From IMG/VR virus record IMGVR_UViG_3300031867_004305, positions 117,043-181,042 of that record: a DNA stretch of 64,000 nt. The stretch is one strand, 5' to 3'. The translations under genes were made by a program, and so were the position numbers. Under the pieces are notes generated by a model. That model saw only the letters and a list, made by a program, of their open reading frames with translations, ran no database searches and was not told where the DNA came from. Every line of letters begins with the position of its first letter. The stretch's first letter is position 1. Below are positions 17,430 to 40,286 of this stretch, piece by piece. The stretch is from a virus. Its lineage: Duplodnaviria > Caudoviricetes.

Positions 17430-17527
17430 TAGGCACACACAGCAATTTTTATTTATTATAAGAATTGTATTATTTGTTTGTTTTCGTGCCGCGGCTGATA
17501 GTACAAAAATAATTTTGATGTGCCTAG
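17430..17527 (+). ncRNA. CAGCAA-family stem RNA 1
   Basis: TAGGCACA-CACAGCAA ... TGTGCCTAG terminal stem. Confidence 0.65.
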
Positions 17528-20893: not shown

Positions 20894-20961
20894 CTAGACA
20901 CGTACAGCAATCTTTTCTATACTACCTGCGCCATTTTTGCTGGAAATTAGAATGTGTCTAG
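20894..20961 (+). ncRNA. CAGCAA-family stem RNA 2
   Basis: CTAGACACG-TACAGCAA ... TGTGTCTAG, filling the spacer between two tRNAs. Confidence 0.65.
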
Positions 20962-21470: not shown

Positions 21471-21619
21471 CGATCCCTAGCTCAGTAGGTCTAGAGCAGC
21501 GGCCTTCACGAAGTACAATCAAGTAGATGGTCTGAAATTACTCAGGCGGGTGACAGGTTCAAATCCTTCCTTCGTGACCAATAAGCCGTGTGTCCTGGGT
21601 TCGAGTCCCAGGGGATCGA
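21471..21619 (+). tRNA. tRNA-Ile(UAU) interrupted in the anticodon by a 74-nt tRNA-like insert (21507-21580)
   Basis: CGATCCC/GGGATCG acceptor, D and T arms intact; GCGGC-CTT[insert]ATAA-GCCGT. Confidence 0.8.
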
Positions 21620-24058: not shown

Positions 24059-24239
24059 TTGATTTGGGATGATAATTTATATGACGCGATGAAAGATGTA
24101 TATGACTATGCCTATCGCGTTTTTTTTGGAAAAGCACCCATAGATGTTACTTATCGTGTGAATTATGGCAGTAGAGGAGCAGAACAAAAAGTTTTACAGT
24201 ATATTTGGAACACTTATATTGAACCGAAGGGAGAAAATA

Positions 24240-24821
24240 ATGAGTAATATTTATTTCAGTAGTGACTTGCATTTTTGTCATAACCGCGGTTTTCTTTATG
24301 AGCCACGCGGTTTTTCATCTATCGAAGAACATGACTCTGCCATTATTGAAAACTGGAATAAAATAGTTAAAAATAATGATGTTGTTTTTCTACTTGGTGA
24401 TTTAATGCTTAATGATAATGTAAATGGTATTAAAAAATTAAATAAATTAAATGGCACGATATATTACATACGAGGAAACCATTGCTCAAATGCGCGTTGC
24501 GTCCTATACGAAGAACAAACTAATATGATTCCGCTATGTAATAATTTCTTTAGTAGTTGGGCTTCATTAGAAAAAATCAAAGGATATAATTTGTATTTAT
24601 CTCATTATCCAACTATAATTGGCTCATTAAAAGATATGACGCCATTAAACAAGAGATTAATAAATCTTCATGGTCATCTTCATAGTAAAAATAAATTCTA
24701 TCAAGATATTCCTTTTATGTATAATGTAGCACTTGACGCACATAATAACGCGCCCGTATCATTTGATGAAATTATTTCAGATATTGAAGCAAAAGCAAAT
24801 GAATGTATTGCTATGCTATAA
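24240..24821 (+). CDS. Calcineurin-like metallophosphoesterase
   Basis: SDLHFCH, LGD, GNH, SHYP, HGHLH motifs. Confidence 0.88.
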   Translation: MSNIYFSSDLHFCHNRGFLYEPRGFSSIEEHDSAIIENWNKIVKNNDVVFLLGDLMLNDNVNGIKKLNKLNGTIYYIRGNHCSNARCVLYEEQTNMIPLCNNFFSSWASLEKIKGYNLYLSHYPTIIGSLKDMTPLNKRLINLHGHLHSKNKFYQDIPFMYNVALDAHNNAPVSFDEIISDIEAKANECIAML

Positions 24822-25129
24822 GGAGATAATATGATTTACGAGGGGCCTTATGTACTTATTTTAATTATCCTATTAGGGATAGGCGCTAGTTTATTATTGA
24901 CTGGTTTTATGAATAGTTAATCAAGGAGGAAATATGGGATTACCATTTATTTTTGGGAAAAAGAAAACAGAAGAAACCCCTGATATTACTAATGAAGAAT
25001 TAGAGAAAATATTAAAATCTGCTCCTGTAATATCTTCAAATACAATAAAACCAGAAGTTATAAGTTTAACTACTTCACGTGAATTAAAGTATTTAAAGAA
25101 ACGAATATGGAAATTCTATCATAAATAAT

Positions 25130-25158
25130 TTGACTTTTACTAAAAAATCTGCTATAAT
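25130..25158 (+). promoter_or_regulatory. sigmaA-type promoter of the DUF2828 gene
   Basis: TTGACT-17 bp-TATAAT with TG extension. Confidence 0.85.
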
Positions 25159-25222
25159 AATATTGTAAGAAAGAAACGAGCCCTAGTCCAGGGCTGACCA
25201 AATGAAAAGGAGAAAATAAATT

Positions 25223-26758
25223 ATGAATCGTCTTTACAATGCTATGGCTTCTCAGAACACCTACAAGACTACCGAGAATGGTGCTATCGCACGCACCACG
25301 ACCAGCTCTAAGCTATATGACCTCTTCTCTTTCGGCGCGGCTTACCGTCAGCGTACCGAGAGTGATTGCGTGCTACTATTTAAGGAGGCATATAAGGAAA
25401 GTCCTATGTATGCCCTAAAGTGCCTGTTCTATATCCGCGATATTCGCGGCGGACAGGGTGAGCGTCGTTTCTTCCGCACTTGCCTGCATTGGCTTGCGGA
25501 TTATGACCGCAATGCCGTACTACGCAATCTTGACCAGATTGCTGAGTATGGCCGCTGGGATGACCTATATGCCCTAGTGGGGACTTCTTGTGAACATGAT
25601 GCTCTTTATGCTCTTGGCAAGCAGCTTGCCCTTGATTACAAGACCAAGGGTGCTATTTCCCTTGCCGGTAAGTGGGCAGCTTCAGAGAACGCTTCTTCTG
25701 CCAAGACTAAGCGTTATGGTCGTCTAACTGCTCATACTATGGGTCTAACTTCTCGTCAATATCGCAAGGTGCTTTCTACCCTTCGTGAGCGTATTCGTGT
25801 TCTGGAGCGACTTATGTCCGCAAATCGTTGGAATGAGATTGAATTTGACAAGATTCCTTCTCGTGCTGGCCTAATCTACAAGAACGCTTTTGCACGCCGT
25901 GATATCATCAAGGCGAAGTATGAGTCTTTTGCAAAGGATAAGACTACCAAGGTTAACGCGGCAGCCCTCTATCCTTACGATGTCGTAGCTAAGGCAATTA
26001 AGCTGATGGGCTCTGACAGCTGGTATGGCCGTGGTAATCATGTTGCTCTTGACAATACCGATCGTCTAATGATTAACAAGTATTGGGAGAATCTTGTTGA
26101 TTATCTGACTGGTGCTCCACTAAATGCGGTGGTAGTGGCTGATACAAGCGGAAGTATGTGTTCAGGTGCTAATAGTGTGGCTCCAATTGATGTTGCTGTT
26201 TCTTTGGCTCTATACGCGGCCGAACGTATGCGTGGTCCTTTTGCCAATCATTATATTTCTTTTAGCCGTAAGGCTCGTTTAATCGAGACTACTGGCGTGG
26301 ATTTTTGTGATAAGGTAGATAGGATTGTAAGGACGAATCTATGTGAAAATACGAATTTAGCTTCCGTATTTGACCTTATCCTAAGTACTGCTTGTCACTA
26401 TAATCTATCTCAAAAGGATATGCCAGAAAGCATTATTATTGTAACAGATATGGAAGTAGATTCCGCACAGGGTTATTCTTCTTGGGGACGAGCACCTGAA
26501 TATGGACACGGCGGTAAGGGAATTCAAACCTTTATGGATAAGATGCGTAGTCGTTGGACTGACGCAGGATATAAAATGCCAAAAATTGTATTTTGGAACG
26601 TAAACGCACGAAATAATACAATTTTGGATGATGGCCCTGATGTTACTAATGTCAGCGGTTGCTCACCGGTTCTATTTGAATCTATCCTATCTGGAAAAAG
26701 TTCTTATGATCTTATGATGGATAAGCTAAATAGTAATCGTTATAAGCCAATTCATTAA
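25223..26758 (+). CDS. DUF2828-family TROVE/Ro60-like protein with C-terminal vWA domain
   Basis: TENGA, RDIRGGQGERRFF, EYGRWDDL, KW motifs; MIDAS DTSGSM; TDME; FWNVN. Confidence 0.82.
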   Translation: MNRLYNAMASQNTYKTTENGAIARTTTSSKLYDLFSFGAAYRQRTESDCVLLFKEAYKESPMYALKCLFYIRDIRGGQGERRFFRTCLHWLADYDRNAVLRNLDQIAEYGRWDDLYALVGTSCEHDALYALGKQLALDYKTKGAISLAGKWAASENASSAKTKRYGRLTAHTMGLTSRQYRKVLSTLRERIRVLERLMSANRWNEIEFDKIPSRAGLIYKNAFARRDIIKAKYESFAKDKTTKVNAAALYPYDVVAKAIKLMGSDSWYGRGNHVALDNTDRLMINKYWENLVDYLTGAPLNAVVVADTSGSMCSGANSVAPIDVAVSLALYAAERMRGPFANHYISFSRKARLIETTGVDFCDKVDRIVRTNLCENTNLASVFDLILSTACHYNLSQKDMPESIIIVTDMEVDSAQGYSSWGRAPEYGHGGKGIQTFMDKMRSRWTDAGYKMPKIVFWNVNARNNTILDDGPDVTNVSGCSPVLFESILSGKSSYDLMMDKLNSNRYKPIH

Positions 26759-26781
26759 AAGACGGATTATTCCGTCTTTTT
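26757..26781 (+). terminator. Intrinsic terminator
   Basis: AAAAGACGGA-TTAT-TCCGTCTTTTT. Confidence 0.75.
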
Positions 26782-26798
26782 ATTTAGGATGTGATTCT

Positions 26799-27542
26799 AT
26801 GGGAAGGCCCGCTAAAGATTTAACAAATCAAAGATTTCAACGATTATTAGTAATTAAGCGTGATGGTTCTACAGCTGATGGTCATGCTAAATGGTTATGT
26901 TTATGTAACTGCGGTAATTATATAAGTGTATCATCCAATAGTTTAAAACGCGGTGATACTAAATCTTGTGGATGCTTAAATAAAGATGTAGCAAGAGAAA
27001 AAGGTAGACAATCTTATAAAGATCTCACTAATAAACGTTTTAATAAACTAATTGCTAAAGAATATTTAGGAAGTAATAATAAAGGAAGTGGTTTATGGAG
27101 ATGCGAATGTGATTGTGGAAATAATAATTTTATTACAACGTCGCACCATTTAATTAGCAGCAATACGCAAAGCTGTGGTTGCTTAAAATCAAAAGGAGAA
27201 GCAAATATAAAACAACTACTTATAAATAATAATATTAATTTTATTTCACAATATTACTTTAAAGATTTATATTATGAAAGTAATATACCTGTTCGATTTG
27301 ATTTTTATTTACCCGATTATAACCGATTAATTGAATTTGATGGTATTCAACATTATACTTCTGGCGGTGGATGGAACACCGCTGAATTATTTAAACGCAA
27401 TAAAAAACACGACGAAATTAGAAACCAATATGCCCTTTCCCACAACATTCCTCTCGTTCGCATACCATATTGGGAACGTGATAATATTACTCTTGAAATG
27501 TTATTTAGTGATGAATATTTAGTGAAAGAAGAAGATGAATGA
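26799..27542 (+). CDS. Putative homing endonuclease (Zn-binding repeats + Vsr/DUF559-like nuclease)
   Basis: Two DLT..RF..L...W.C.C.CG...SCGC repeats; RFDFYLP...IEFDGIQH. Confidence 0.75.
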   Translation: MGRPAKDLTNQRFQRLLVIKRDGSTADGHAKWLCLCNCGNYISVSSNSLKRGDTKSCGCLNKDVAREKGRQSYKDLTNKRFNKLIAKEYLGSNNKGSGLWRCECDCGNNNFITTSHHLISSNTQSCGCLKSKGEANIKQLLINNNINFISQYYFKDLYYESNIPVRFDFYLPDYNRLIEFDGIQHYTSGGGWNTAELFKRNKKHDEIRNQYALSHNIPLVRIPYWERDNITLEMLFSDEYLVKEEDE

Positions 27543-27612
27543 AAATTCATCTTCTTTTTTATTGACTAAATATAAAAATTATAGTATAATAATTATAGAA
27601 AGGATGAGGAAT

Positions 27613-27969
27613 ATGAATTATTATATCTATCTTGATGATGTACGCGAAGATGATACTTGGTTTCGGCAACATTTAAATACAGAGCATTGGATTCCTTGCG
27701 TTGTTCGTTCCTATGATGAAGTAATTCATGTTCTCAATCATATGCGAGATTATATGAATGAGAATGAAGTGCTTATTCTTGACCTCGACCACGACCTTGG
27801 CGAAACTGAAGAAGGCTATAATGAACTCGCGCGCACAGGATATGACGTTTGTAAGTGGATTGTTGAAAACGATTTTCAAAATCTTTACTTTCATATACAT
27901 AGTATGAACCCCGTTGGGTCTGCAAATATGCGGCAACTTCTTACTCATTATGGATATAAGGAGATTTAG
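27613..27969 (+). CDS. Cyclic-phosphate-processing receiver domain protein
   Basis: IYLDDVR...LDHDLG...GYDVCKWI...IHSMNPVG signature. Confidence 0.75.
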   Translation: MNYYIYLDDVREDDTWFRQHLNTEHWIPCVVRSYDEVIHVLNHMRDYMNENEVLILDLDHDLGETEEGYNELARTGYDVCKWIVENDFQNLYFHIHSMNPVGSANMRQLLTHYGYKEI

Positions 27970-27970
27970 T

Positions 27971-28189
27971 ATGAAAAATCCTTGGGAAGATTGTACTCAT
28001 TATGATGGCTGGAATGGGTTTGAAGGAGCGGTAGTAAAACATGACCGTGGTATTTGGTCTGATGAAGTGTTTGATAATTGGTTAAGTGAATATTGTGAAC
28101 GTTGCCCATTCTTTGCGAGTGGAGAGGCTTGTGTATATGGAGACAAAGATGTTATGAAAATGATGAAAAACAAATATGAGGAAATTTAA
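27971..28189 (+). CDS. Hypothetical Cys-rich protein
   Basis: ORF in operon context. Confidence 0.5.
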   Translation: MKNPWEDCTHYDGWNGFEGAVVKHDRGIWSDEVFDNWLSEYCERCPFFASGEACVYGDKDVMKMMKNKYEEI

Positions 28190-28397
28190 TATGTGGAAAA
28201 AAGTAAAGGATTGCGAAACTCTTTCAATACAAGCCCTTGCAGCTATGGCACTCGTAGAAAAGAAAAATAATCGTTTAATTACTTGGTCTACTAGTGACGG
28301 ATTAATTCATTTATGCTCTTTTGAAACTTTAGCACAAATCAAAGAAACTGAAATAGAATCCAATACAAAATTTACTCTATGGGAGAAAAAATAAAGT

Positions 28398-29048
28398 ATG
28401 AGAAAGTATGAAAAGATTGATACTCTCTATCAAAGAGACACAACCGGAACTAAAAAGTTGCTTCCGGGAGTATTTCGTGATCCTACCGTAGAATATCTCA
28501 GCGACAATAATTGGATTTGGACTGAAAAGGTTGATGGCACTAATATCCGTGTATGTTGGGATGGCCATACTGTAACCTTTGGCGGCCGCACCGATAATGC
28601 TGCTATTCCCGCAGAACTTGTTACTCGTTTGAATGAGTTGTTCGGTGGAGAAACAAATGCTCAAATTTTTGAACAGGTTTTCGGCGATAAGGAAGTCATT
28701 CTTTTCGGTGAAGGCTATGGTCGCAAGATTCAAAAGGGCGGTGGAAAGTATATTCCCGACGGCGTAGATTTTATTCTTTTTGATGTGCTTATTGGCGACA
28801 ATTATCAAGAACGAGAATGGGTAGAAGAAACTGCCACAATGTTTGGAATTAAAGCTGTTCCTATTGTTGGCACTGGTAGTCTATATGCCGCAGGAGAGTA
28901 TGTAAAAACCCATCCTAATTCTGTAATTGCAGAAGAGCCGCGTGAAATGGAAGGAGTAGTATGTCGTCCTGCAATTGAACTACGCAATCGTCGCGGCGAG
29001 CGTATAATCGTAAAAATCAAATGGGAAGATATGAAGGAGCTAGTATAA
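28398..29048 (+). CDS. ATP-dependent RNA ligase (Rnl2-like nucleotidyltransferase core)
   Basis: Motif I EKVDGTN, III FGEGYG, IIIa FILFDV, IV EGVVCR, V IVKIK. Confidence 0.85.
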   Translation: MRKYEKIDTLYQRDTTGTKKLLPGVFRDPTVEYLSDNNWIWTEKVDGTNIRVCWDGHTVTFGGRTDNAAIPAELVTRLNELFGGETNAQIFEQVFGDKEVILFGEGYGRKIQKGGGKYIPDGVDFILFDVLIGDNYQEREWVEETATMFGIKAVPIVGTGSLYAAGEYVKTHPNSVIAEEPREMEGVVCRPAIELRNRRGERIIVKIKWEDMKELV

Positions 29049-32544: not shown

Positions 32545-32679
32545 CCACGCGTGGTGCAAATGGCGAGACACAGCGGACTTACGTAGGCCCAGTGGCTTGT
32601 TGGAGAGCAACACTCCTTCCTACGACCAAAATCCGCGACGCAAGATACATTGCTGGTTCAAATCCAGTCGCGTGGACCA
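32545..32679 (+). tRNA. tRNA-Leu(UAA) interrupted in the anticodon by a 47-nt tRNA-minihelix-like insert (32582-32628)
   Basis: CCACGCG/CGCGTGG-ACCA; GCGGA-CTTA[insert]AAA-TCCGC; long variable region; T arm intact. Confidence 0.8.
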
Positions 32680-32682
32680 TAT

Positions 32683-32759
32683 GTTCCATTACCCCAATTG
32701 GTAGAGGGAATCGGCTCAAACCCGATGTAGTTTCAGTTCGAATCTGAAATGGAACACCA
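32683..32759 (+). tRNA. tRNA-Leu(CAA), short variable loop
   Basis: ATCGG-CTCAAAC-CCGAT; ACCA. Confidence 0.88.
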
Positions 32760-32837: not shown

Positions 32838-33794
32838 ATGGAAACTTACACAAATATTTGGTTAGATATTTCAGAAGAACAATGGAGAAAAATTATTTCT
32901 ACTAGTCTAACTCGTGCAGAGGTCGCACGCAAAGTTAATCGTTGTCCCAATTCAAGTTTTAATGAGCGTTTAAAAAAATATTGTGATGAACATAATATCT
33001 CTATTGAACATTTTACAATTAATGAAAATGGCAATAAAGAGAAATATCAACTTGAAGAAATTCTAGTAGAAAACTCTCCTGCTTCGAGAAAAACATTAAG
33101 AGACTATTTAGCAAAATATAACATTCTAGAATATAAATGTGCTATTTGCGGGAATGTTGGAGAATGGAATGGAGTTTCTTTAACTTTACAAATAGACCAT
33201 ATTAATGGAATAAATAATGATAATAGAAAAGAAAATCTTCGTTGGTTATGTCCAAATTGTCATTCTCAAACTGACACGTTTACTGGGAAAAATAAAACTA
33301 AAAAAGAAGTTGTTAATTTCACAGTAGAAGAAGCGATTAAAGCATTAAGACAAACTGAAAATGTAAATCAAGCAACTAAATTAATCGGTTGTGCGCAAGG
33401 TGGAGCAAATTGGATTAGAGTAAATGATATTAAGAAAGAATATGGAATTGTTCAATCTGGAGATTTAAAAAAAGAAGAAAAATATAAGTTTGAAGAAAAT
33501 CATATTAATGTAAAACCAATGAACTTTATTAAATTATGTAAAAAGTGCGGTCGTCCATTATCGACAAAAGATGCTGAGTATTGTCAAACTTGTATTCACG
33601 AATTTCAACGAAAATGTGAATGGCCTTCCCGCGAAGAACTTAAAAAATTAATCCGTTCCACACCTTTTTTACAAATAGGTAAAAAATATAATGTAAGTGA
33701 TAACGCTGTAAGAAAATGGTGTTTAAATTACGGTTTACCATCTAAAAAAAAGGAAATCAAAGCAATTTCAGATGAAGAGTGGGCTACCATTTGA
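32838..33794 (+). CDS. HNH homing endonuclease
   Basis: CAIC...LQIDHING...DNRKENLRWLCPNCH. Confidence 0.88.
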   Translation: METYTNIWLDISEEQWRKIISTSLTRAEVARKVNRCPNSSFNERLKKYCDEHNISIEHFTINENGNKEKYQLEEILVENSPASRKTLRDYLAKYNILEYKCAICGNVGEWNGVSLTLQIDHINGINNDNRKENLRWLCPNCHSQTDTFTGKNKTKKEVVNFTVEEAIKALRQTENVNQATKLIGCAQGGANWIRVNDIKKEYGIVQSGDLKKEEKYKFEENHINVKPMNFIKLCKKCGRPLSTKDAEYCQTCIHEFQRKCEWPSREELKKLIRSTPFLQIGKKYNVSDNAVRKWCLNYGLPSKKKEIKAISDEEWATI

Positions 33795-34067: not shown

Positions 34068-34113
34068 AATTATAATATAATAATTATAGTAAAGGGAAAG
34101 GAATTAAGATGTA

Positions 34114-34179
34114 AGGCGGAAACAGCAACATTCTTTTAAGTAGCAATCTGTTAAATTGTAAGACTTATTAACCGCCTAG
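34114..34179 (+). ncRNA. CAGCAA-family stem RNA 3, carrying an Asn(GUU)-like anticodon hairpin
   Basis: AGGCGG-AAACAGCAA ... GCAAT-CTGTTAA-ATTGT ... CCGCCTAG. Confidence 0.65.
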
Positions 34180-34603: not shown

Positions 34604-35197
34604 GTAGATACCCTATTTAATAAAATGGTTGAACCAAGTGAAGAAGAGCTAACCACTCTGCTTGGACTATCCGAAAAACAGCCCCAAACTTGATGGGATA
34701 CTTTCAAGCCAAGGCCGCGAAATCAGTAATGATTAGCGATATGGAGAAACTCCTAATGTTAAGGGTAGGTGCTTGGTTATCCGCTAACAAAAACTTGGCT
34801 CCTCGCGGCGTCGTAATAGAAGGTGGGCGTTAAAAGCGTGACCTGAATCCAAGTTAGGCGTAGGATGGCTGCCACCGCAAACCTTGGAAATGCCAACAAG
34901 ACGCTTGGTGTCGTTGAAACCTAGAAATAGGATATAAGCGAGGTTCACAGAAAAAGTAGCCCAAAACGACAATGATTCTAATAGATATTTGTAAATATTA
35001 CTTGGAATTATTGTGCTGAACGGTTCGGGTGAAATTTGAGAGTAAGCAATCTCTCCGTTGCTCACCGAAAGGTAGGGTGAAGAAGTCCGGAATTGCTACC
35101 CGTGGCTCAGCCTTCATCTTCAACGTGGTTGAATATGTTAGAAGGATAATACAAGTACGACGAAGGTCGCAACGGTTTTATTAAATAGGGTATTTGC
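34604..35197 (+). ncRNA. Large ncRNA, ROOL-like (~590 nt)
   Basis: Long closing helix ATACCCTATTTAATAAAA/TTTTATTAAATAGGGTAT; size and tRNA-cluster context fit ROOL; family assignment is recollection, not a search. Confidence 0.6.
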
Positions 35198-36428: not shown

Positions 36429-36968
36429 ATGAACGAAGTAAGACTAAAGATTCTACCTCCTTGGACTATTGTAATTCGTAAGTTCGAGGCCCTATTTGAT
36501 GGTGACCCACAAATTGCTTGTAATTGTAACTTTAATGGTGCTAATCCTTCTATCGTTCTTGCTTGTAATAACGGAGATAAGGTCGCCGCACTCCTGAAGA
36601 TTCTACCTTCCGAAGTTGATTTTGGTAATATTAAGCTAAAGGTTGTGGTCGATGGCATTCCTTCTAATAAGGCATTTACTAGTAAGGTTGAGCTATTTGA
36701 CACCGCTTTTAAGGGTAATCCCGCATATGCATATTCCATATGTCCTGCTGAAGAAGGTTATATGTGGATTGGAACTACTTATGTAGTGTTCAAGAATTTC
36801 GTCGTACAGTTTGCTGCTGATAATCTAAACGATTGTCACGGCATTATTAGCACTCTATATCAAGATATTGCAGAAGAGCTTCTACGTGGAGAAGCTACTG
36901 AAGGTGTTTTTTACAATACTGATGTAGAACGTGCGAATCTCGGTAAGCCCCTAGGTGAGTGGCCATAA
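36429..36968 (+). CDS. Hypothetical phage protein
   Basis: ORF with RBS; VVQF.ADNL.D..G motif. Confidence 0.6.
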   Translation: MNEVRLKILPPWTIVIRKFEALFDGDPQIACNCNFNGANPSIVLACNNGDKVAALLKILPSEVDFGNIKLKVVVDGIPSNKAFTSKVELFDTAFKGNPAYAYSICPAEEGYMWIGTTYVVFKNFVVQFAADNLNDCHGIISTLYQDIAEELLRGEATEGVFYNTDVERANLGKPLGEWP

Positions 36969-36981
36969 GCCACTCTAATCT

Positions 36982-37057
36982 GGGCCTATAGTTCAGCGGC
37001 TAGAATGTCCGGTTGTCTCCCGGAAGATCGCAGGTTCGAATCCTGTTAGGCTCGCCA
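36982..37057 (+). tRNA. tRNA-Asp(GUC)
   Basis: TCCGG-TTGTCTC-CCGGA; GCCA. Confidence 0.9.
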
Positions 37058-37175
37058 TAGACTCATCCAGCAATTTCTTTTGCGCTGTAGGAGCCGGTAA
37101 TATTGGTTCAAATCCAATTCTCCTCACCATATGAGGAGATAGTGTAATAGGTAGCACGCCGTAAAATGAGTCTAG
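37058..37175 (+). ncRNA. CAGCAA-family RNA 4: permuted tRNA mimic (YrlA-like)
   Basis: TAGACTCAT-CCAGCAA; T arm, then closed acceptor TCTCCTCA-CCATA-TGAGGAGA, then D arm; ATGAGTCTAG. Confidence 0.75.
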
Positions 37176-37183
37176 TATATTAT

Positions 37184-37260
37184 AGGGGTGTGGGCTAAAG
37201 GTGAGCCGCCTCATTTGGGGTGAGGACATCAAGTGAGTTCGATTCTCACCACTCCTACCA
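37184..37260 (+). tRNA. tRNA-Pro(UGG)
   Basis: CCTCA-TTTGGGG-TGAGG; ACCA. Confidence 0.88.
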
Positions 37261-37358
37261 ATTAAGAAAAAGAGAAGCGTAAGAGTAATTAACTTATGAG
37301 ATAACAATACCTCAATATTGAGTCTTTTTCTTATATAAATATTATTGAGGCGATATTT

Positions 37359-37907
37359 ATGCCTAAAAGAATGACACAAGAAGATTTTAATGCTAGAATA
37401 AAAGATTACACTAATGATTCTATAATAGTTATTGGAGAATATAAAAATAAAAAAACTCCTGTTTTAATACAATGTAAAAAATGTAATTACAAATGGTATT
37501 ATTCTCCAGCATCATTAATGCCTAGTTCTACAAAAAATTATCATTTTAAAGGTTGCCCTAATTGTAAAAAAGTAACTCTTTTTTGCTTAGAATGTGGAAA
37601 AGAATTTACTCGGTTAAAAACTGAAATAAATGACAATAATTTTTGTTGTAAAACTTGTGCAAATCGTTATAAAAATAAACAAAAAATCAATAAAATTGAT
37701 AGTTTAGCATACAGACGCAATGCTTTTGAATATTATCCGCACAAATGCGATATTTGTGGTTGGAATAAAGATGAAAGAGTATTAGAAGTTCATCATTTAG
37801 ACGAAGATAGAACTAATAATCATATTGATAATTTACGAATTTTGTGTCCAAATTGTCATAAATTTTTAACATTGCATCTTTATTCTTATGAAGAAATGAA
37901 ACAGTAA
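37359..37907 (+). CDS. HNH endonuclease
   Basis: CDICGW...LEVHH.DEDRTNN.IDNL.ILCPNCH. Confidence 0.85.
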   Translation: MPKRMTQEDFNARIKDYTNDSIIVIGEYKNKKTPVLIQCKKCNYKWYYSPASLMPSSTKNYHFKGCPNCKKVTLFCLECGKEFTRLKTEINDNNFCCKTCANRYKNKQKINKIDSLAYRRNAFEYYPHKCDICGWNKDERVLEVHHLDEDRTNNHIDNLRILCPNCHKFLTLHLYSYEEMKQ

Positions 37908-38248: not shown

Positions 38249-38351
38249 TTAAGCCGTCACAGCAATCTTTTTAAGTGGTTAAATTATTTTGATTGAGAAG
38301 CAAAATGAGAGACGGTTCAAACCCATCACAATTAAACAATTAACGGCTTAA
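38249..38351 (+). ncRNA. CAGCAA-family RNA 5 with degenerate D/anticodon/T arms in normal order
   Basis: TTAAGCCGT-CACAGCAA ... AAGTGGTTAA ... GACGG-TTCAAAC-CCATC ... ACGGCTTAA. Confidence 0.65.
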
Positions 38352-38367
38352 TATTAATACAGTGAAT

Positions 38368-38447
38368 AAGGCACACACAGCAATTACTTTTATAATTACA
38401 AGATATAGATATTGGGCAGTATATTAAAGTAAATTATTAGTGCCTTG
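38368..38447 (+). ncRNA. CAGCAA-family stem RNA 6
   Basis: AAGGCAC-ACACAGCAA ... GTGCCTTG. Confidence 0.65.
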
Positions 38448-38970: not shown

Positions 38971-39087
38971 TAGGCACATGCAGCAACTTACATAGATAAT
39001 CTATGAGTCATCGGTTCGATTCCGATTATGCAATCCAAAGCTTTGCGTATCGCCCAGATGGTAGGGCAATAGAAACAAGGTGCCTAG
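38971..39087 (+). ncRNA. CAGCAA-family RNA 7: permuted tRNA mimic (YrlA-like)
   Basis: TAGGCAC-ATGCAGCAA; ATCGG-TTCGATT-CCGAT; TATGCAA-TCCAAAGCT-TTGCGTA; GCCC-AGATGGTA-GGGC; GTGCCTAG. Confidence 0.75.
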
Positions 39088-40063: not shown

Positions 40064-40138
40064 GCGGGTGTAGTTCAACGGCTCGAATACCTGGCTTCCA
40101 CCCAGGAGATGAGGTTTCGACTACCTCTACTCGCACCA
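40064..40138 (+). tRNA. tRNA-Gly(UCC)
   Basis: CCTGG-CTTCCAC-CCAGG; ACCA. Confidence 0.88.
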
Positions 40139-40142
40139 ATAT

Positions 40143-40218
40143 AGGCGTGTAGCCAAGTGGTTAAGGCACATGGCTTTGACCCATGCATTCGCTGGTTCAA
40201 ATCCAGCCACGCCTGCCA
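40143..40218 (+). tRNA. tRNA-Gln(UUG)
   Basis: CATGG-CTTTGAC-CCATG; GCCA. Confidence 0.92.
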
Positions 40219-40222
40219 ATTT

Positions 40223-40286
40223 TAGACGCCATTGTGCCACAACAACAGCAATTATTTTGTAGCTCCATTTTTTATAAGGCGTCTAG
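40223..40286 (+). ncRNA. CAGCAA-family stem RNA 8
   Basis: TAGACGCC-(small hairpin)-AACAGCAA ... GGCGTCTAG. Confidence 0.6.

What the first reader, a model, noticed from the sequence alone, without database searches (positions are those of the whole stretch)
37058..37175. Circularly permuted tRNA mimic with CCA retained in a closed acceptor loop
Seen order: CAGCAA stem, T arm (ATTGG-TTCAAAT-CCAAT), acceptor 3' strand TCTCCTC-A-CCA, acceptor 5' strand GAGGAGA, D arm (GTGT-AATAGGTA-GCAC), closing stem. A Tyr-like CTGTAGG loop remnant lies upstream of the T arm. This topology matches YrlA-type Y RNAs. The retained ACCA means cleavage in the loop would give a two-piece tRNA mimic with a real CCA end, echoing the internal-CCA theme of the split tRNAs.
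Basis: partly seen in the sequence, partly recalled or inferred. Interest (0 to 1): 0.8.

Follow-up and report, generated by a model that had tools for sequence, protein, structure and literature searches.

The report
Permuted tRNA-shaped Ro60-partner RNA
This 117-base phage RNA is a real tRNA body opened at the anticodon loop, closed at the acceptor end, and mounted on a conserved "handle"; that handle marks the likely partner RNAs of a Ro60-like protein in phages, bacteria and archaea, so this looks like an undescribed branch of the Ro60/Y-RNA particle.

Summary
Window 37058-37174 (+), between tRNA-Asp and tRNA-Pro, folds as described: a 9-bp terminal stem, CAGCAA, T arm, 7-bp acceptor hairpin with A-CCA-UAU in the loop, U8A9, D arm and a 4-bp anticodon-like stem. 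Orthologues show compensatory changes, including the tertiary pairs G19:C56 to A19:U56 and R15:Y48.

It is one of eight "CAGCAA-handle" RNAs in this phage's tRNA island. The phage encodes a DUF2828/DUF7788 protein (25223-26758) whose model matches only Ro60/TROVE structures at the top. In 80 loci from distant genomes, handle RNAs, many with the same permuted tRNA core, lie beside such genes, always on the gene's strand. A model built only from those distant RNAs hits this element at 65.6 bits (E 3.5e-15).

It works like YrlA but is not a YrlA member: it has no GNCGAA motif, and Rfam YrlA scores nothing here.

The CCA is real but is not a family feature (13 of 63 cores). The loop CCA-UAU-G equals the phage's standard tRNA-tRNA junction. 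That points to origin from a tandem tRNA gene and makes an RNase P cut plausible but untested.

Protein binding is inferred, not shown. This scan had already noted the same system in at least 86 other genomes.

The parts
37058..37066 (+). Terminal (handle) stem, 5' strand UAGACUCAU. It starts directly after the CCA of tRNA-Asp.
   Evidence: Invariant in orthologues; covaries among paralogues and distant members.
37068..37073 (+). CAGCAA handle motif, followed by a G-poor, U-rich tract. GCAA (37070-37073) can pair with UUGC (37080-37083).
   Evidence: motif present in 182 distinct elements; aligned to the ACAGCAA of model R1.
37084..37094 (+). Only the RGGRGC part recurs in the subclass.
37095..37098 (+). 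Anticodon-stem equivalent, 3'-side strand CGGU. It pairs with 37158-37161.
   Evidence: two of four pairs change on both sides in L002.
37099..37101 (+). Variable-loop equivalent AAU. U37101 = position 48, Levitt partner of A15 (37147).
   Evidence: positions 15:48 are A:U or G:C in 55 of 63 cores.
37102..37118 (+). T arm AUUGG-UUCAAAU-CCAAU.
   Evidence: C56 changes to U together with G19 to A in L017 and L015.
37119..37139 (+). Closed acceptor hairpin: UCUCCUC (66-72), A73, CCA, spacer UAU, GAGGAGA (1-7). The predicted RNase P site lies between 37132 and 37133.
   Evidence: three pairs with compensatory changes; the CCA-UAU-G junction is the phage's standard one.
37140..37157 (+). U8 A9 and the D arm GUGU-AAUAGGUA-GCAC (A14, A15, G18, G19, A21 all present).
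37158..37165 (+). GCCG (anticodon-stem equivalent, 5'-side strand), then the A-rich UAAA opposite the CAGCAA side of the handle.
37166..37174 (+). Terminal (handle) stem, 3' strand AUGAGUCUA. It ends 9 nt before tRNA-Pro.
25223..26758 (+). Gene for a Ro60-like protein (Pfam DUF2828 + DUF7788; HEAT ring plus vWA). This is the inferred protein partner.
24165..29048 (+). RNA-repair-type neighbourhood of the Ro60-like gene: phosphoesterase (24165-24821), homing-endonuclease-like ORF (26799-27542), cREC domain (27535-27969), RNA ligase (28398-29048).
38971..39086 (+). Paralogue with the same permuted tRNA core; its acceptor loop is U-CCA-AAGCU.
   Evidence: 80.4 bits.
17430..17527 (+). Handle RNA paralogue without a tRNA-like core.
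20894..20961 (+). Short handle RNA paralogue.
34113..34178 (+). Short handle RNA paralogue.
38249..38351 (+). Handle RNA paralogue with a T-arm-like hairpin only.
38367..38447 (+). Handle RNA paralogue with an AU-rich interior.
40223..40285 (+). Handle RNA paralogue with a longer spacer before CAGCAA.

Best explanation
The element is a Y-RNA-like partner RNA of the phage's own Ro60-like protein. It is one of eight such RNAs in the tRNA island.

It has two modules:
1. A 'handle': a terminal stem of 7-11 bp, then CAGCAA on the 5' side and an A/U-rich stretch on the 3' side. I infer this is the protein-binding site, analogous to the Ro60-binding stem of Y RNAs.
2. A cargo. Here the cargo is a complete tRNA body opened at the anticodon loop and closed at the acceptor end. 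It folds into the tRNA L-shape and most likely presents a tRNA elbow and acceptor to tRNA-recognising enzymes or to host anti-tRNA factors, as proposed for YrlA.

The RNA is transcribed with its neighbours and released by tRNA processing of tRNA-Asp and tRNA-Pro.

The loop A-CCA-UAU-G is the footprint of a tandem tRNA junction. It may still be cut by RNase P, with the trailer trimmed back to CCA. That would give a two-piece molecule held together by 20 base pairs.

Shown: the fold, its conservation, family membership, and genomic linkage to Ro60-fold genes.
Inferred: protein binding, release by processing, what the cargo does, and the RNase P cut.
For: Fold and selection on it:
- The MFE structure has z = -4.4.
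- Orthologues keep 99.3% of pairs, with 5 compensatory pairs.
- The tertiary pair G19:C56 becomes A19:U56 in L017 and L015.
- The Levitt pair 15:48 is A:U or G:C in 55 of 63 distinct cores, against 30 expected.
- Re-joining 37133-37162 and 37094-37129 through any 7-nt loop gives a 73-nt tRNA by ARAGORN.

Partner protein:
- Window 25223-26758 is DUF2828 + DUF7788.
- Its model (pLDDT 76) has Ro60/TROVE structures as its 13 best PDB matches, over the full length, with TM 0.37-0.56 (most about 0.5) and E 1.6e-7 to 5.5e-4.

Linkage:
- In 80 loci holding such genes from distant taxa, permuted tRNA cores number 27 on the gene strand and 1 on the other.
- Stem+CAGCAA RNAs lie within 1.5 kb of the gene in 44 of 80 loci, often as tandem arrays of up to six.
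- Distant members keep the structure: 93.3% of cells paired, 24 of 27 pairs compensatory.
- Model R1, built only from those distant RNAs, hits 37058-37174 over its full length at 65.6 bits, E 3.5e-15.
- R1 gives 52 hits at E <= 1e-3 in the 80 loci, all on the gene strand.
- Five of those genomes have no canonical TROVE gene.

Processing context:
- No promoter lies upstream of the element.
- It sits 0 nt after tRNA-Asp and 9 nt before tRNA-Pro.
- 17 of 19 phage tRNAs encode CCA, and 11 of 19 have UAU at positions -3 to -1.
Against:
- In this phage the RNAs are 4-15 kb from the Ro60-like gene rather than adjacent to it.
- The handle differs from the known Ro60 site GNCGAA, so analogy is the only argument for binding.
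- The element is absent between Asp and Pro in relative L009, so it is dispensable or mobile.
- The cargo's target is unknown.
Confidence: 0.7

Rival explanations
1. It is a genuine circularly permuted or split tRNA gene. RNase P opens the acceptor loop, and the product, as two pieces or after re-joining by the phage RNA ligase, is aminoacylated and used in translation.
For: - All tRNA body parts and tertiary signatures are present.
- The acceptor end has G1-C72, A73, an encoded CCA and the phage's usual UAU leader.
- An RNA ligase and end-healing genes lie nearby.
- ARAGORN finds no Tyr, His, Phe, Ile or Val tRNA in the window.
Against: - There is no anticodon arm. The candidate loop sits on a 3-bp stem and is not conserved.
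- The anticodon-stem equivalent runs into the conserved handle.
- CCA is lost in L002.
- Most family members close the acceptor with loops of 3-6 nt.
- The same handle carries cargoes with no tRNA parts at all.
Confidence: 0.05
2. It is a tRNA decoy that acts without the Ro60-like protein, for example by soaking up a host anticodon nuclease, another tRNA-targeting defence, or a tRNA-modifying enzyme. On this view the handle serves only stability or processing.
For: - The tRNA elbow and acceptor are conserved.
- Some relatives carry exact Asn (CUGUUAA) and Tyr (CUGUAAA) anticodon loops as cargo.
- The setting is a phage tRNA and RNA-repair island.
Against: - This element has no anticodon loop to offer as a target.
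- The handle, not the cargo, is the invariant part. It tracks DUF2828 genes across phyla, including cellular genomes.
Confidence: 0.12
3. It is a structured spacer or mobile cassette of the tRNA cluster: a remnant of tandem tRNA duplication kept as a processing signal or moved by the neighbouring HNH endonucleases. On this view it has no function of its own as an RNA particle.
For: - The element is present or absent between relatives.
- HNH genes lie next to it (37359-37907).
- The loop is a fossil tRNA junction.
Against: - Compensatory and tertiary covariation show selection on the folded RNA.
- The same RNA type sits beside Ro60-like genes in bacteria and archaeal MAGs that have no tRNA cluster there.
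Confidence: 0.08

Closest known systems
YrlA-type bacterial and phage Y RNAs with Ro60/Rsr (Chen et al. 2014, PMC4201824; structure preprint 10.1101/312249; Rfam RF02553)
   Same: - The terminal stem is formed by the 5' and 3' ends.
- The order is stem, (V), T arm, closed acceptor hairpin, UA, D arm, stem.
- The tRNA tertiary pairs are kept, including an A:U Levitt pair.
- It is encoded in a genome with a Ro60-fold protein and RNA-repair genes, and next to tRNA genes.
   Different: - The handle motif is CAGCAA, not GNCGAA(N)G.
- RF02553 does not score.
- The partner is a DUF2828/DUF7788 protein that Pfam TROVE does not detect.
- The acceptor stem is a full 7 bp with an encoded A-CCA.
- There are eight paralogues with interchangeable cargoes.
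Mycobacterium smegmatis YrlA (PMC4201824)
   Same: It has a 7-bp acceptor stem. It is cut by RNase P in vitro, and in vivo it is cleaved, nibbled and given CCA, so a two-piece tRNA-like Y RNA is a known outcome.
   Different: In M. smegmatis the CCA is added after cleavage. Here the CCA, and the phage's standard UAU leader, are encoded in the loop. Cleavage here is untested.
Thermus phage phiLo Ro60 with Yrl1/Yrl2 (PMC12135203; PDB 9KOP, 9L5Y)
   Same: It is a phage-encoded Ro60 with phage-encoded partner RNAs. 9KOP is the best structural match of the protein encoded here.
   Different: The phiLo RNAs were found through the CGAA motif and lie directly upstream of the gene. A permuted tRNA cargo is not described for them in the passages I read.
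Circularly permuted tRNA genes of Cyanidioschyzon merolae and two-piece tmRNA from permuted ssrA genes (from my own knowledge, not checked here)
   Same: The 3' half lies upstream of the 5' half, and an internal acceptor junction is opened by tRNA end-processing.
   Different: Those mature into working tRNA or tmRNA. The algal ones need a bulge-helix-bulge motif and a circular intermediate. Here the termini form a plain 9-bp stem carrying a conserved motif, and there is no anticodon loop.
Class I RNAs of dictyostelid amoebae (PMC7919456; search pattern GTTGRCCTTACAGCAA...GTCAACTG in PMC5054030)
   Same: Both have a short terminal stem joining the 5' and 3' ends, ACAGCAA next to the 5' strand, a variable interior and many paralogues.
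   Different: Class I RNAs are eukaryotic, 42-65 nt, have a longer 11-nt motif, and their known binder is an RRM protein (Rnp1A). No link to a DUF2828 protein has been shown. Relatedness was not tested here.

Membership tests
YrlA (Rfam RF02553; Chen et al. 2014) | Permuted tRNA-like domain (T arm, closed acceptor hairpin, UA, D arm) closed by a stem made of the RNA's two ends | tested here: met
YrlA (Rfam RF02553; Chen et al. 2014) | tRNA tertiary signature: U8, A14, G18G19 with the T loop, Levitt pair 15:48 | tested here: met
   G19:C56 changes to A19:U56; 15:48 is complementary in 55 of 63 cores.
YrlA (Rfam RF02553; Chen et al. 2014) | GNCGAA(N0-1)G motif on the 5' strand of the Ro60-binding stem | tested here: not met
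   The motif is absent from 37058-37174 and present in only 3 of 182 family elements. CAGCAA stands in its place.
YrlA (Rfam RF02553; Chen et al. 2014) | Scores at or above the gathering score (69 bits) of the covariance model | tested here: not met
   No hit even at E <= 10 in 36950-37300. The best hit in the whole phage is 9.9 bits, at a tRNA T loop.
YrlA (Rfam RF02553; Chen et al. 2014) | Encoded near a TROVE-domain Ro60/Rsr gene | tested here: inconclusive
   Pfam TROVE gives no hit in the genome. A protein with the Ro60 fold (DUF2828 + DUF7788) lies 10.3 kb upstream in the same island.
YrlA (Rfam RF02553; Chen et al. 2014) | Bound by Ro60/Rsr | not testable with these tools
   Needs co-purification or a gel-shift assay.
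CAGCAA-handle RNAs beside DUF2828-type Ro60-like genes (no published family found; defined here and in earlier notes of this scan) | Terminal stem of 7-11 bp, usually starting (U/A)AGRC, conserved in structure but not in sequence | tested here: met
   (7 of 7 stem pairs compensatory).
CAGCAA-handle RNAs beside DUF2828-type Ro60-like genes (no published family found; defined here and in earlier notes of this scan) | CAGCAA 0-3 nt after the 5' strand, then a G-poor tract; an A/U-rich stretch before the 3' strand | tested here: met
CAGCAA-handle RNAs beside DUF2828-type Ro60-like genes (no published family found; defined here and in earlier notes of this scan) | Significant score with a model built only from distant members | tested here: met
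   R1 gives 65.6 bits, E 3.5e-15, over the full model length.
CAGCAA-handle RNAs beside DUF2828-type Ro60-like genes (no published family found; defined here and in earlier notes of this scan) | Same genome and same strand as a DUF2828/DUF7788 gene | tested here: met
   (52 of 52 hits on the gene strand).
Permuted tRNA genes that mature into working tRNAs | A full anticodon arm with a 7-nt loop | tested here: not met
   only a 3-bp hairpin with a 5-nt loop, and it is not conserved.
Permuted tRNA genes that mature into working tRNAs | Bulge-helix-bulge at the paired termini for endonuclease and ligase processing | tested here: not met
   The termini form an uninterrupted 9-bp stem.
Dictyostelid Class I RNAs | Short terminal stem plus the 11-nt motif CCUUACAGCAA next to its 5' strand | tested here: inconclusive
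   The stem and CAGCAA are shared, but the upstream CCUUA is not. No homology test was possible.

The most novel reading that the evidence does not exclude
The conserved CCA-UAU-G junction is a working processing site. RNase P opens the acceptor loop and exonucleases trim to CCA. The Ro60-like particle then carries a two-piece, tRNA-shaped RNA with a true CCA end. That end is either charged or serves as a substrate or template for the phage's neighbouring RNA healing and sealing enzymes. More broadly, the CAGCAA handle with DUF2828 proteins would be a third, ancient branch of Ro60/Y-RNA particles, whose eukaryotic members include the dictyostelid Class I RNAs.
Probability: 0.12. Interest if true: 0.85.

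Novelty: new variant of a known kind. Interest (0 to 1): 0.62.

Why it matters
Ro60/Y-RNA particles are known from animals, some bacteria and a few phages, and their bacterial Y RNAs (YrlA) mimic tRNA. This element shows that a second, sequence-divergent Ro60-like protein family (DUF2828/DUF7788) has its own class of partner RNA, with a different handle motif and modular cargoes. This family is found in phages, many bacterial phyla and archaeal MAGs.

This copy is the clearest tRNA cargo. It is a complete tRNA body with an encoded CCA and a native RNase P context, so it is a good substrate for several questions:
- What does the tRNA-like module recruit?
- Is it nicked by RNase P?
- How do Y RNAs arise from tandem tRNA genes?

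The shared stem-plus-ACAGCAA signature also gives a testable lead for the dictyostelid Class I RNAs, whose mechanism is not yet known.

Tried and rejected
Searches that found nothing:
- Rfam at gathering and at E <= 10: nothing but the flanking tRNAs.
- RF02553 over the whole phage: 9.9 bits at a tRNA T loop.
- Pfam TROVE over the phage: no hit.
- Sequence searches of the protein and of its profile against PDB: nothing. The single-sequence fold was too poor to use (pLDDT 41).
- blastn of the region against 50,697 phage records: only the flanking tRNAs matched.
- An exact 25-mer in viral contigs: none.

Things I could not do:
- Burroughs and Aravind 2016 could not be read.
- Relatives cannot be drawn for a virus record.

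Readings considered and dropped:
- Parent tRNA: the best matches are weak (the D arm resembles tRNA-Trp, 16-17 of 27 positions), so no parent is named.
- A permuted gene for a decoding tRNA: rejected, because there is no anticodon arm.
- A Tyr anticodon remnant: rejected, because it is not conserved.
- A minus-strand terminator at the acceptor hairpin: dismissed, because no minus-strand gene ends there.
- The R1 hits at 32646-32709 and 40105-40169 are partial (model positions 35-95). They lie at ordinary tRNA-tRNA junctions, the same false-positive type Chen et al. noted.

Full report
**Setting.** The window is the last 64 kb of a 181-kb IMG/VR phage record. It holds 19 tRNA genes, all on the + strand, and a ROOL RNA. 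The finding lies between tRNA-Asp (36982-37057) and tRNA-Pro (37184-37260). It starts directly after the CCA of tRNA-Asp and ends 9 nt before tRNA-Pro. No promoter-like site lies just upstream, so it is probably co-transcribed with its neighbours.

The minimum-free-energy fold of 37058-37178 contains, in order (-38 kcal/mol, z = -4.4, no shuffle as good):
- a 9-bp terminal stem (UAGACUCAU/AUGAGUCUA);
- two small hairpins;
- a 4-bp stem (CGGU/GCCG);
- the T arm;
- a 7-bp acceptor hairpin (8 bp in the predicted fold) with A-CCA-UAU in the loop;
- U8A9 and the D arm.

If 37133-37162 and 37094-37129 are re-joined through any 7-nt loop, ARAGORN calls a 73-nt tRNA. So this is a complete tRNA body, opened at the anticodon loop and closed at the acceptor end.

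**The fold is under selection.** Relatives of the upstream 179-aa ORF gave 33 related phage loci. Five of them carry an orthologue of the element at 79-94% identity.
- On the five distinct sequences, 99.3% of cells pair, against 33-44% when partners are slid.
- Three acceptor pairs and two pairs of the anticodon-like stem changed on both sides.
- In L017 and L015 the T-loop C56 is U and the D-loop G19 is A. This is a compensated tertiary pair.
- Across 63 distinct permuted cores found in all loci, the Levitt pair 15:48 is A:U or G:C in 55, against 30 expected.

**It belongs to a family.** I confirmed them. In the related loci I found about 72 more distinct ones, nearly all on the + strand. They are 52-123 nt long and share this layout:
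- a covarying stem, usually starting (U/A)AGRC;
- CAGCAA 0-3 nt after the stem's 5' strand, then a G-poor tract;
- an A/U-rich stretch before the 3' strand.

The interiors differ: plain hairpins, a T arm alone, the full permuted tRNA core, or a normally ordered D-anticodon-T body. Some cores keep exact Asn or Tyr anticodon loops as a side hairpin.

**The partner protein.** Window 25223-26758 encodes a 511-aa protein with Pfam DUF2828 and DUF7788 and PHROG 'RNA-binding protein'. Pfam TROVE does not hit the genome, and sequence searches of PDB fail. A model built with 29 homologues (pLDDT 76) has Ro60/TROVE structures as its 13 best PDB matches, over the full length. These include Xenopus, human and Deinococcus Ro60 and the Thermus phage phiLo Ro60. 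Isolated vWA domains follow. Its neighbours are a phosphoesterase, a cREC domain and an RNA ligase. This resembles the rsr-yrlBA-rtcBA arrangement described for Salmonella (PMC4201824).

**Linkage beyond this phage.** I fetched 80 loci holding such genes (26-75% identity). They come from Akkermansia, Mycolicibacterium, Chroococcidiopsis, Lentisphaeria, Chlorobiaceae, Thermotogota, archaeal MAGs and phage-like contigs.
- My detector of permuted tRNA cores found 27 on the gene strand and 1 on the other. Many lie within 300 nt of the gene, and their 5' flanks read stem + ACAGCAA.
- Stem+CAGCAA RNAs lie within 1.5 kb of the gene in 44 of 80 loci, often as arrays of up to six.
- Fourteen distant members keep the structure: 93.3% of cells paired and 24 of 27 pairs with changes on both sides.
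- Model R1, built only from these 14, hits window 37058-37174 over its full length at 65.6 bits (E 3.5e-15). It hits 38971-39086 at 80.4 bits and five other handle RNAs more weakly, all on the + strand.
- Over the 80 loci R1 gives 52 hits at E <= 1e-3, all on the gene strand. Fourteen of these are training sequences.
- Five of the genomes have no canonical TROVE gene.

**Comparison with YrlA.** The shared features are the architecture, the tertiary signature, the UA linker, the tRNA-cluster setting and the Ro60-fold partner (PMC4201824; 10.1101/312249). Membership fails on three points:
- there is no GNCGAA motif;
- Rfam YrlA (RF02553) finds nothing;
- the partner is not a Pfam TROVE protein.

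So it works like a YrlA but belongs to a separate family. I found that family neither in Rfam nor in the papers searched.

**The CCA.** NCCA opens the acceptor loop in 13 of 63 distinct cores, against about 1 expected. These come from roughly seven or eight independent lineages. Most other loops are 3-6 nt, including UNCG-type tetraloops. Within this orthologue group one lineage has ACUA instead of ACCA. In the 38971 group one lineage lost the CCA altogether. So CCA is not required by the family.

In this phage, 17 of 19 tRNA genes encode CCA and 11 of 19 have UAU at positions -3 to -1. The real Gln-Lys junction reads CCA-tat-G. The loop here is therefore the phage's standard tRNA-tRNA junction. 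The simplest reading is that the permuted core arose from a tandem tRNA duplication, and that loops shrink with age.

The same facts (U-1, G1-C72, A73, CCA, a 7-bp stem stacked on the T arm) make an RNase P cut between 37132 and 37133 plausible. M. smegmatis YrlA, which has a 7-bp stem, is a precedent (PMC4201824). I put the chance of a cut in vivo at about even.

**Mechanism, with marks.**
- Shown: the fold, its conservation, family membership and genomic linkage to Ro60-fold genes.
- Inferred: the handle binds the Ro60-like protein; the tRNA-shaped cargo recruits or occupies a tRNA-recognising factor, in the context of RNA repair or of host attack on tRNAs; release is by tRNA processing; there may be an RNase P nick.

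**Known-ness.** The earlier notes show that this scan has met the same protein-RNA pairing in at least 86 other genomes, with the same reading. One of those notes pointed to dictyostelid Class I RNAs. I confirmed from PMC5054030 that their search pattern is GTTGRCCTTACAGCAA...GTCAACTG, that is, a terminal stem plus ACAGCAA. I did not test relatedness.

Noticed in passing
window 34610-35188 (+): A full-length ROOL RNA (Rfam RF03087, 307.6 bits) sits inside the same tRNA island, 2 kb upstream of the element.
   Followed up: no
L003, L023, L027, L028, L029 (e.g. L003:11347-11435): Several related phages carry a tRNA with anticodon CUA, which ARAGORN labels Pyl. This is an amber-suppressor-type tRNA and could mean TAG readthrough or recoding in part of this phage group.
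   Followed up: no
L009:10554-10705: In one close relative tRNA-Asp and tRNA-Pro are only 3 nt apart, with no element between them. The handle RNA is therefore a presence/absence cassette, and the order of tRNAs after the conserved 179-aa ORF differs in almost every relative.
   Followed up: partly
L026:6097-6215, L031:16882-17004, L043:2234-2348: The same CAGCAA handle also encloses normally ordered D arm, anticodon arm and T arm bodies (one with a Phe-like GAA loop) in which the handle stem replaces the acceptor stem. The handle thus accepts tRNA parts in more than one topology.
   Followed up: partly
L010:2554-2668, L008:10754-10871, L029:2399-2515, L027:8997-9114, L031:5771-5879: Some permuted cores keep a side hairpin with the exact anticodon loop of tRNA-Asn (CUGUUAA) or tRNA-Tyr (CUGUAAA). 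Both belong to the Q34/GUN anticodon group that certain anticodon nucleases are known to target (that last point is from my own knowledge).
   Followed up: no
window 17322-40218: Eleven of the 19 phage tRNA genes are preceded by the same UAU at positions -3 to -1, and 17 encode CCA. This is an unusually uniform processing context across the island.
   Followed up: partly
window 26799-27542, 32838-33794, 37359-37907: HNH or homing-endonuclease-like genes are scattered through the island. One lies between the Ro60-like gene and the cREC/ligase genes, and one lies right after tRNA-Pro.
   Followed up: no
window 21471-21619 and 32545-32679: Earlier notes describe tRNA-Ile and tRNA-Leu genes interrupted in the anticodon loop by ACCA-ending minihelix inserts. 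R1 gives only a partial hit (32646-32709, model positions 35-95) at the junction with the next tRNA. I did not examine them further.
   Followed up: no
L088:12566-12841, L102:11505-11763: Two Mycolicibacterium genomes carry three tandem handle RNAs just downstream of a DUF2828-type gene and have no Pfam TROVE gene. In L102 the stems start UGGAC rather than AAGAC/UAGAC.
   Followed up: partly
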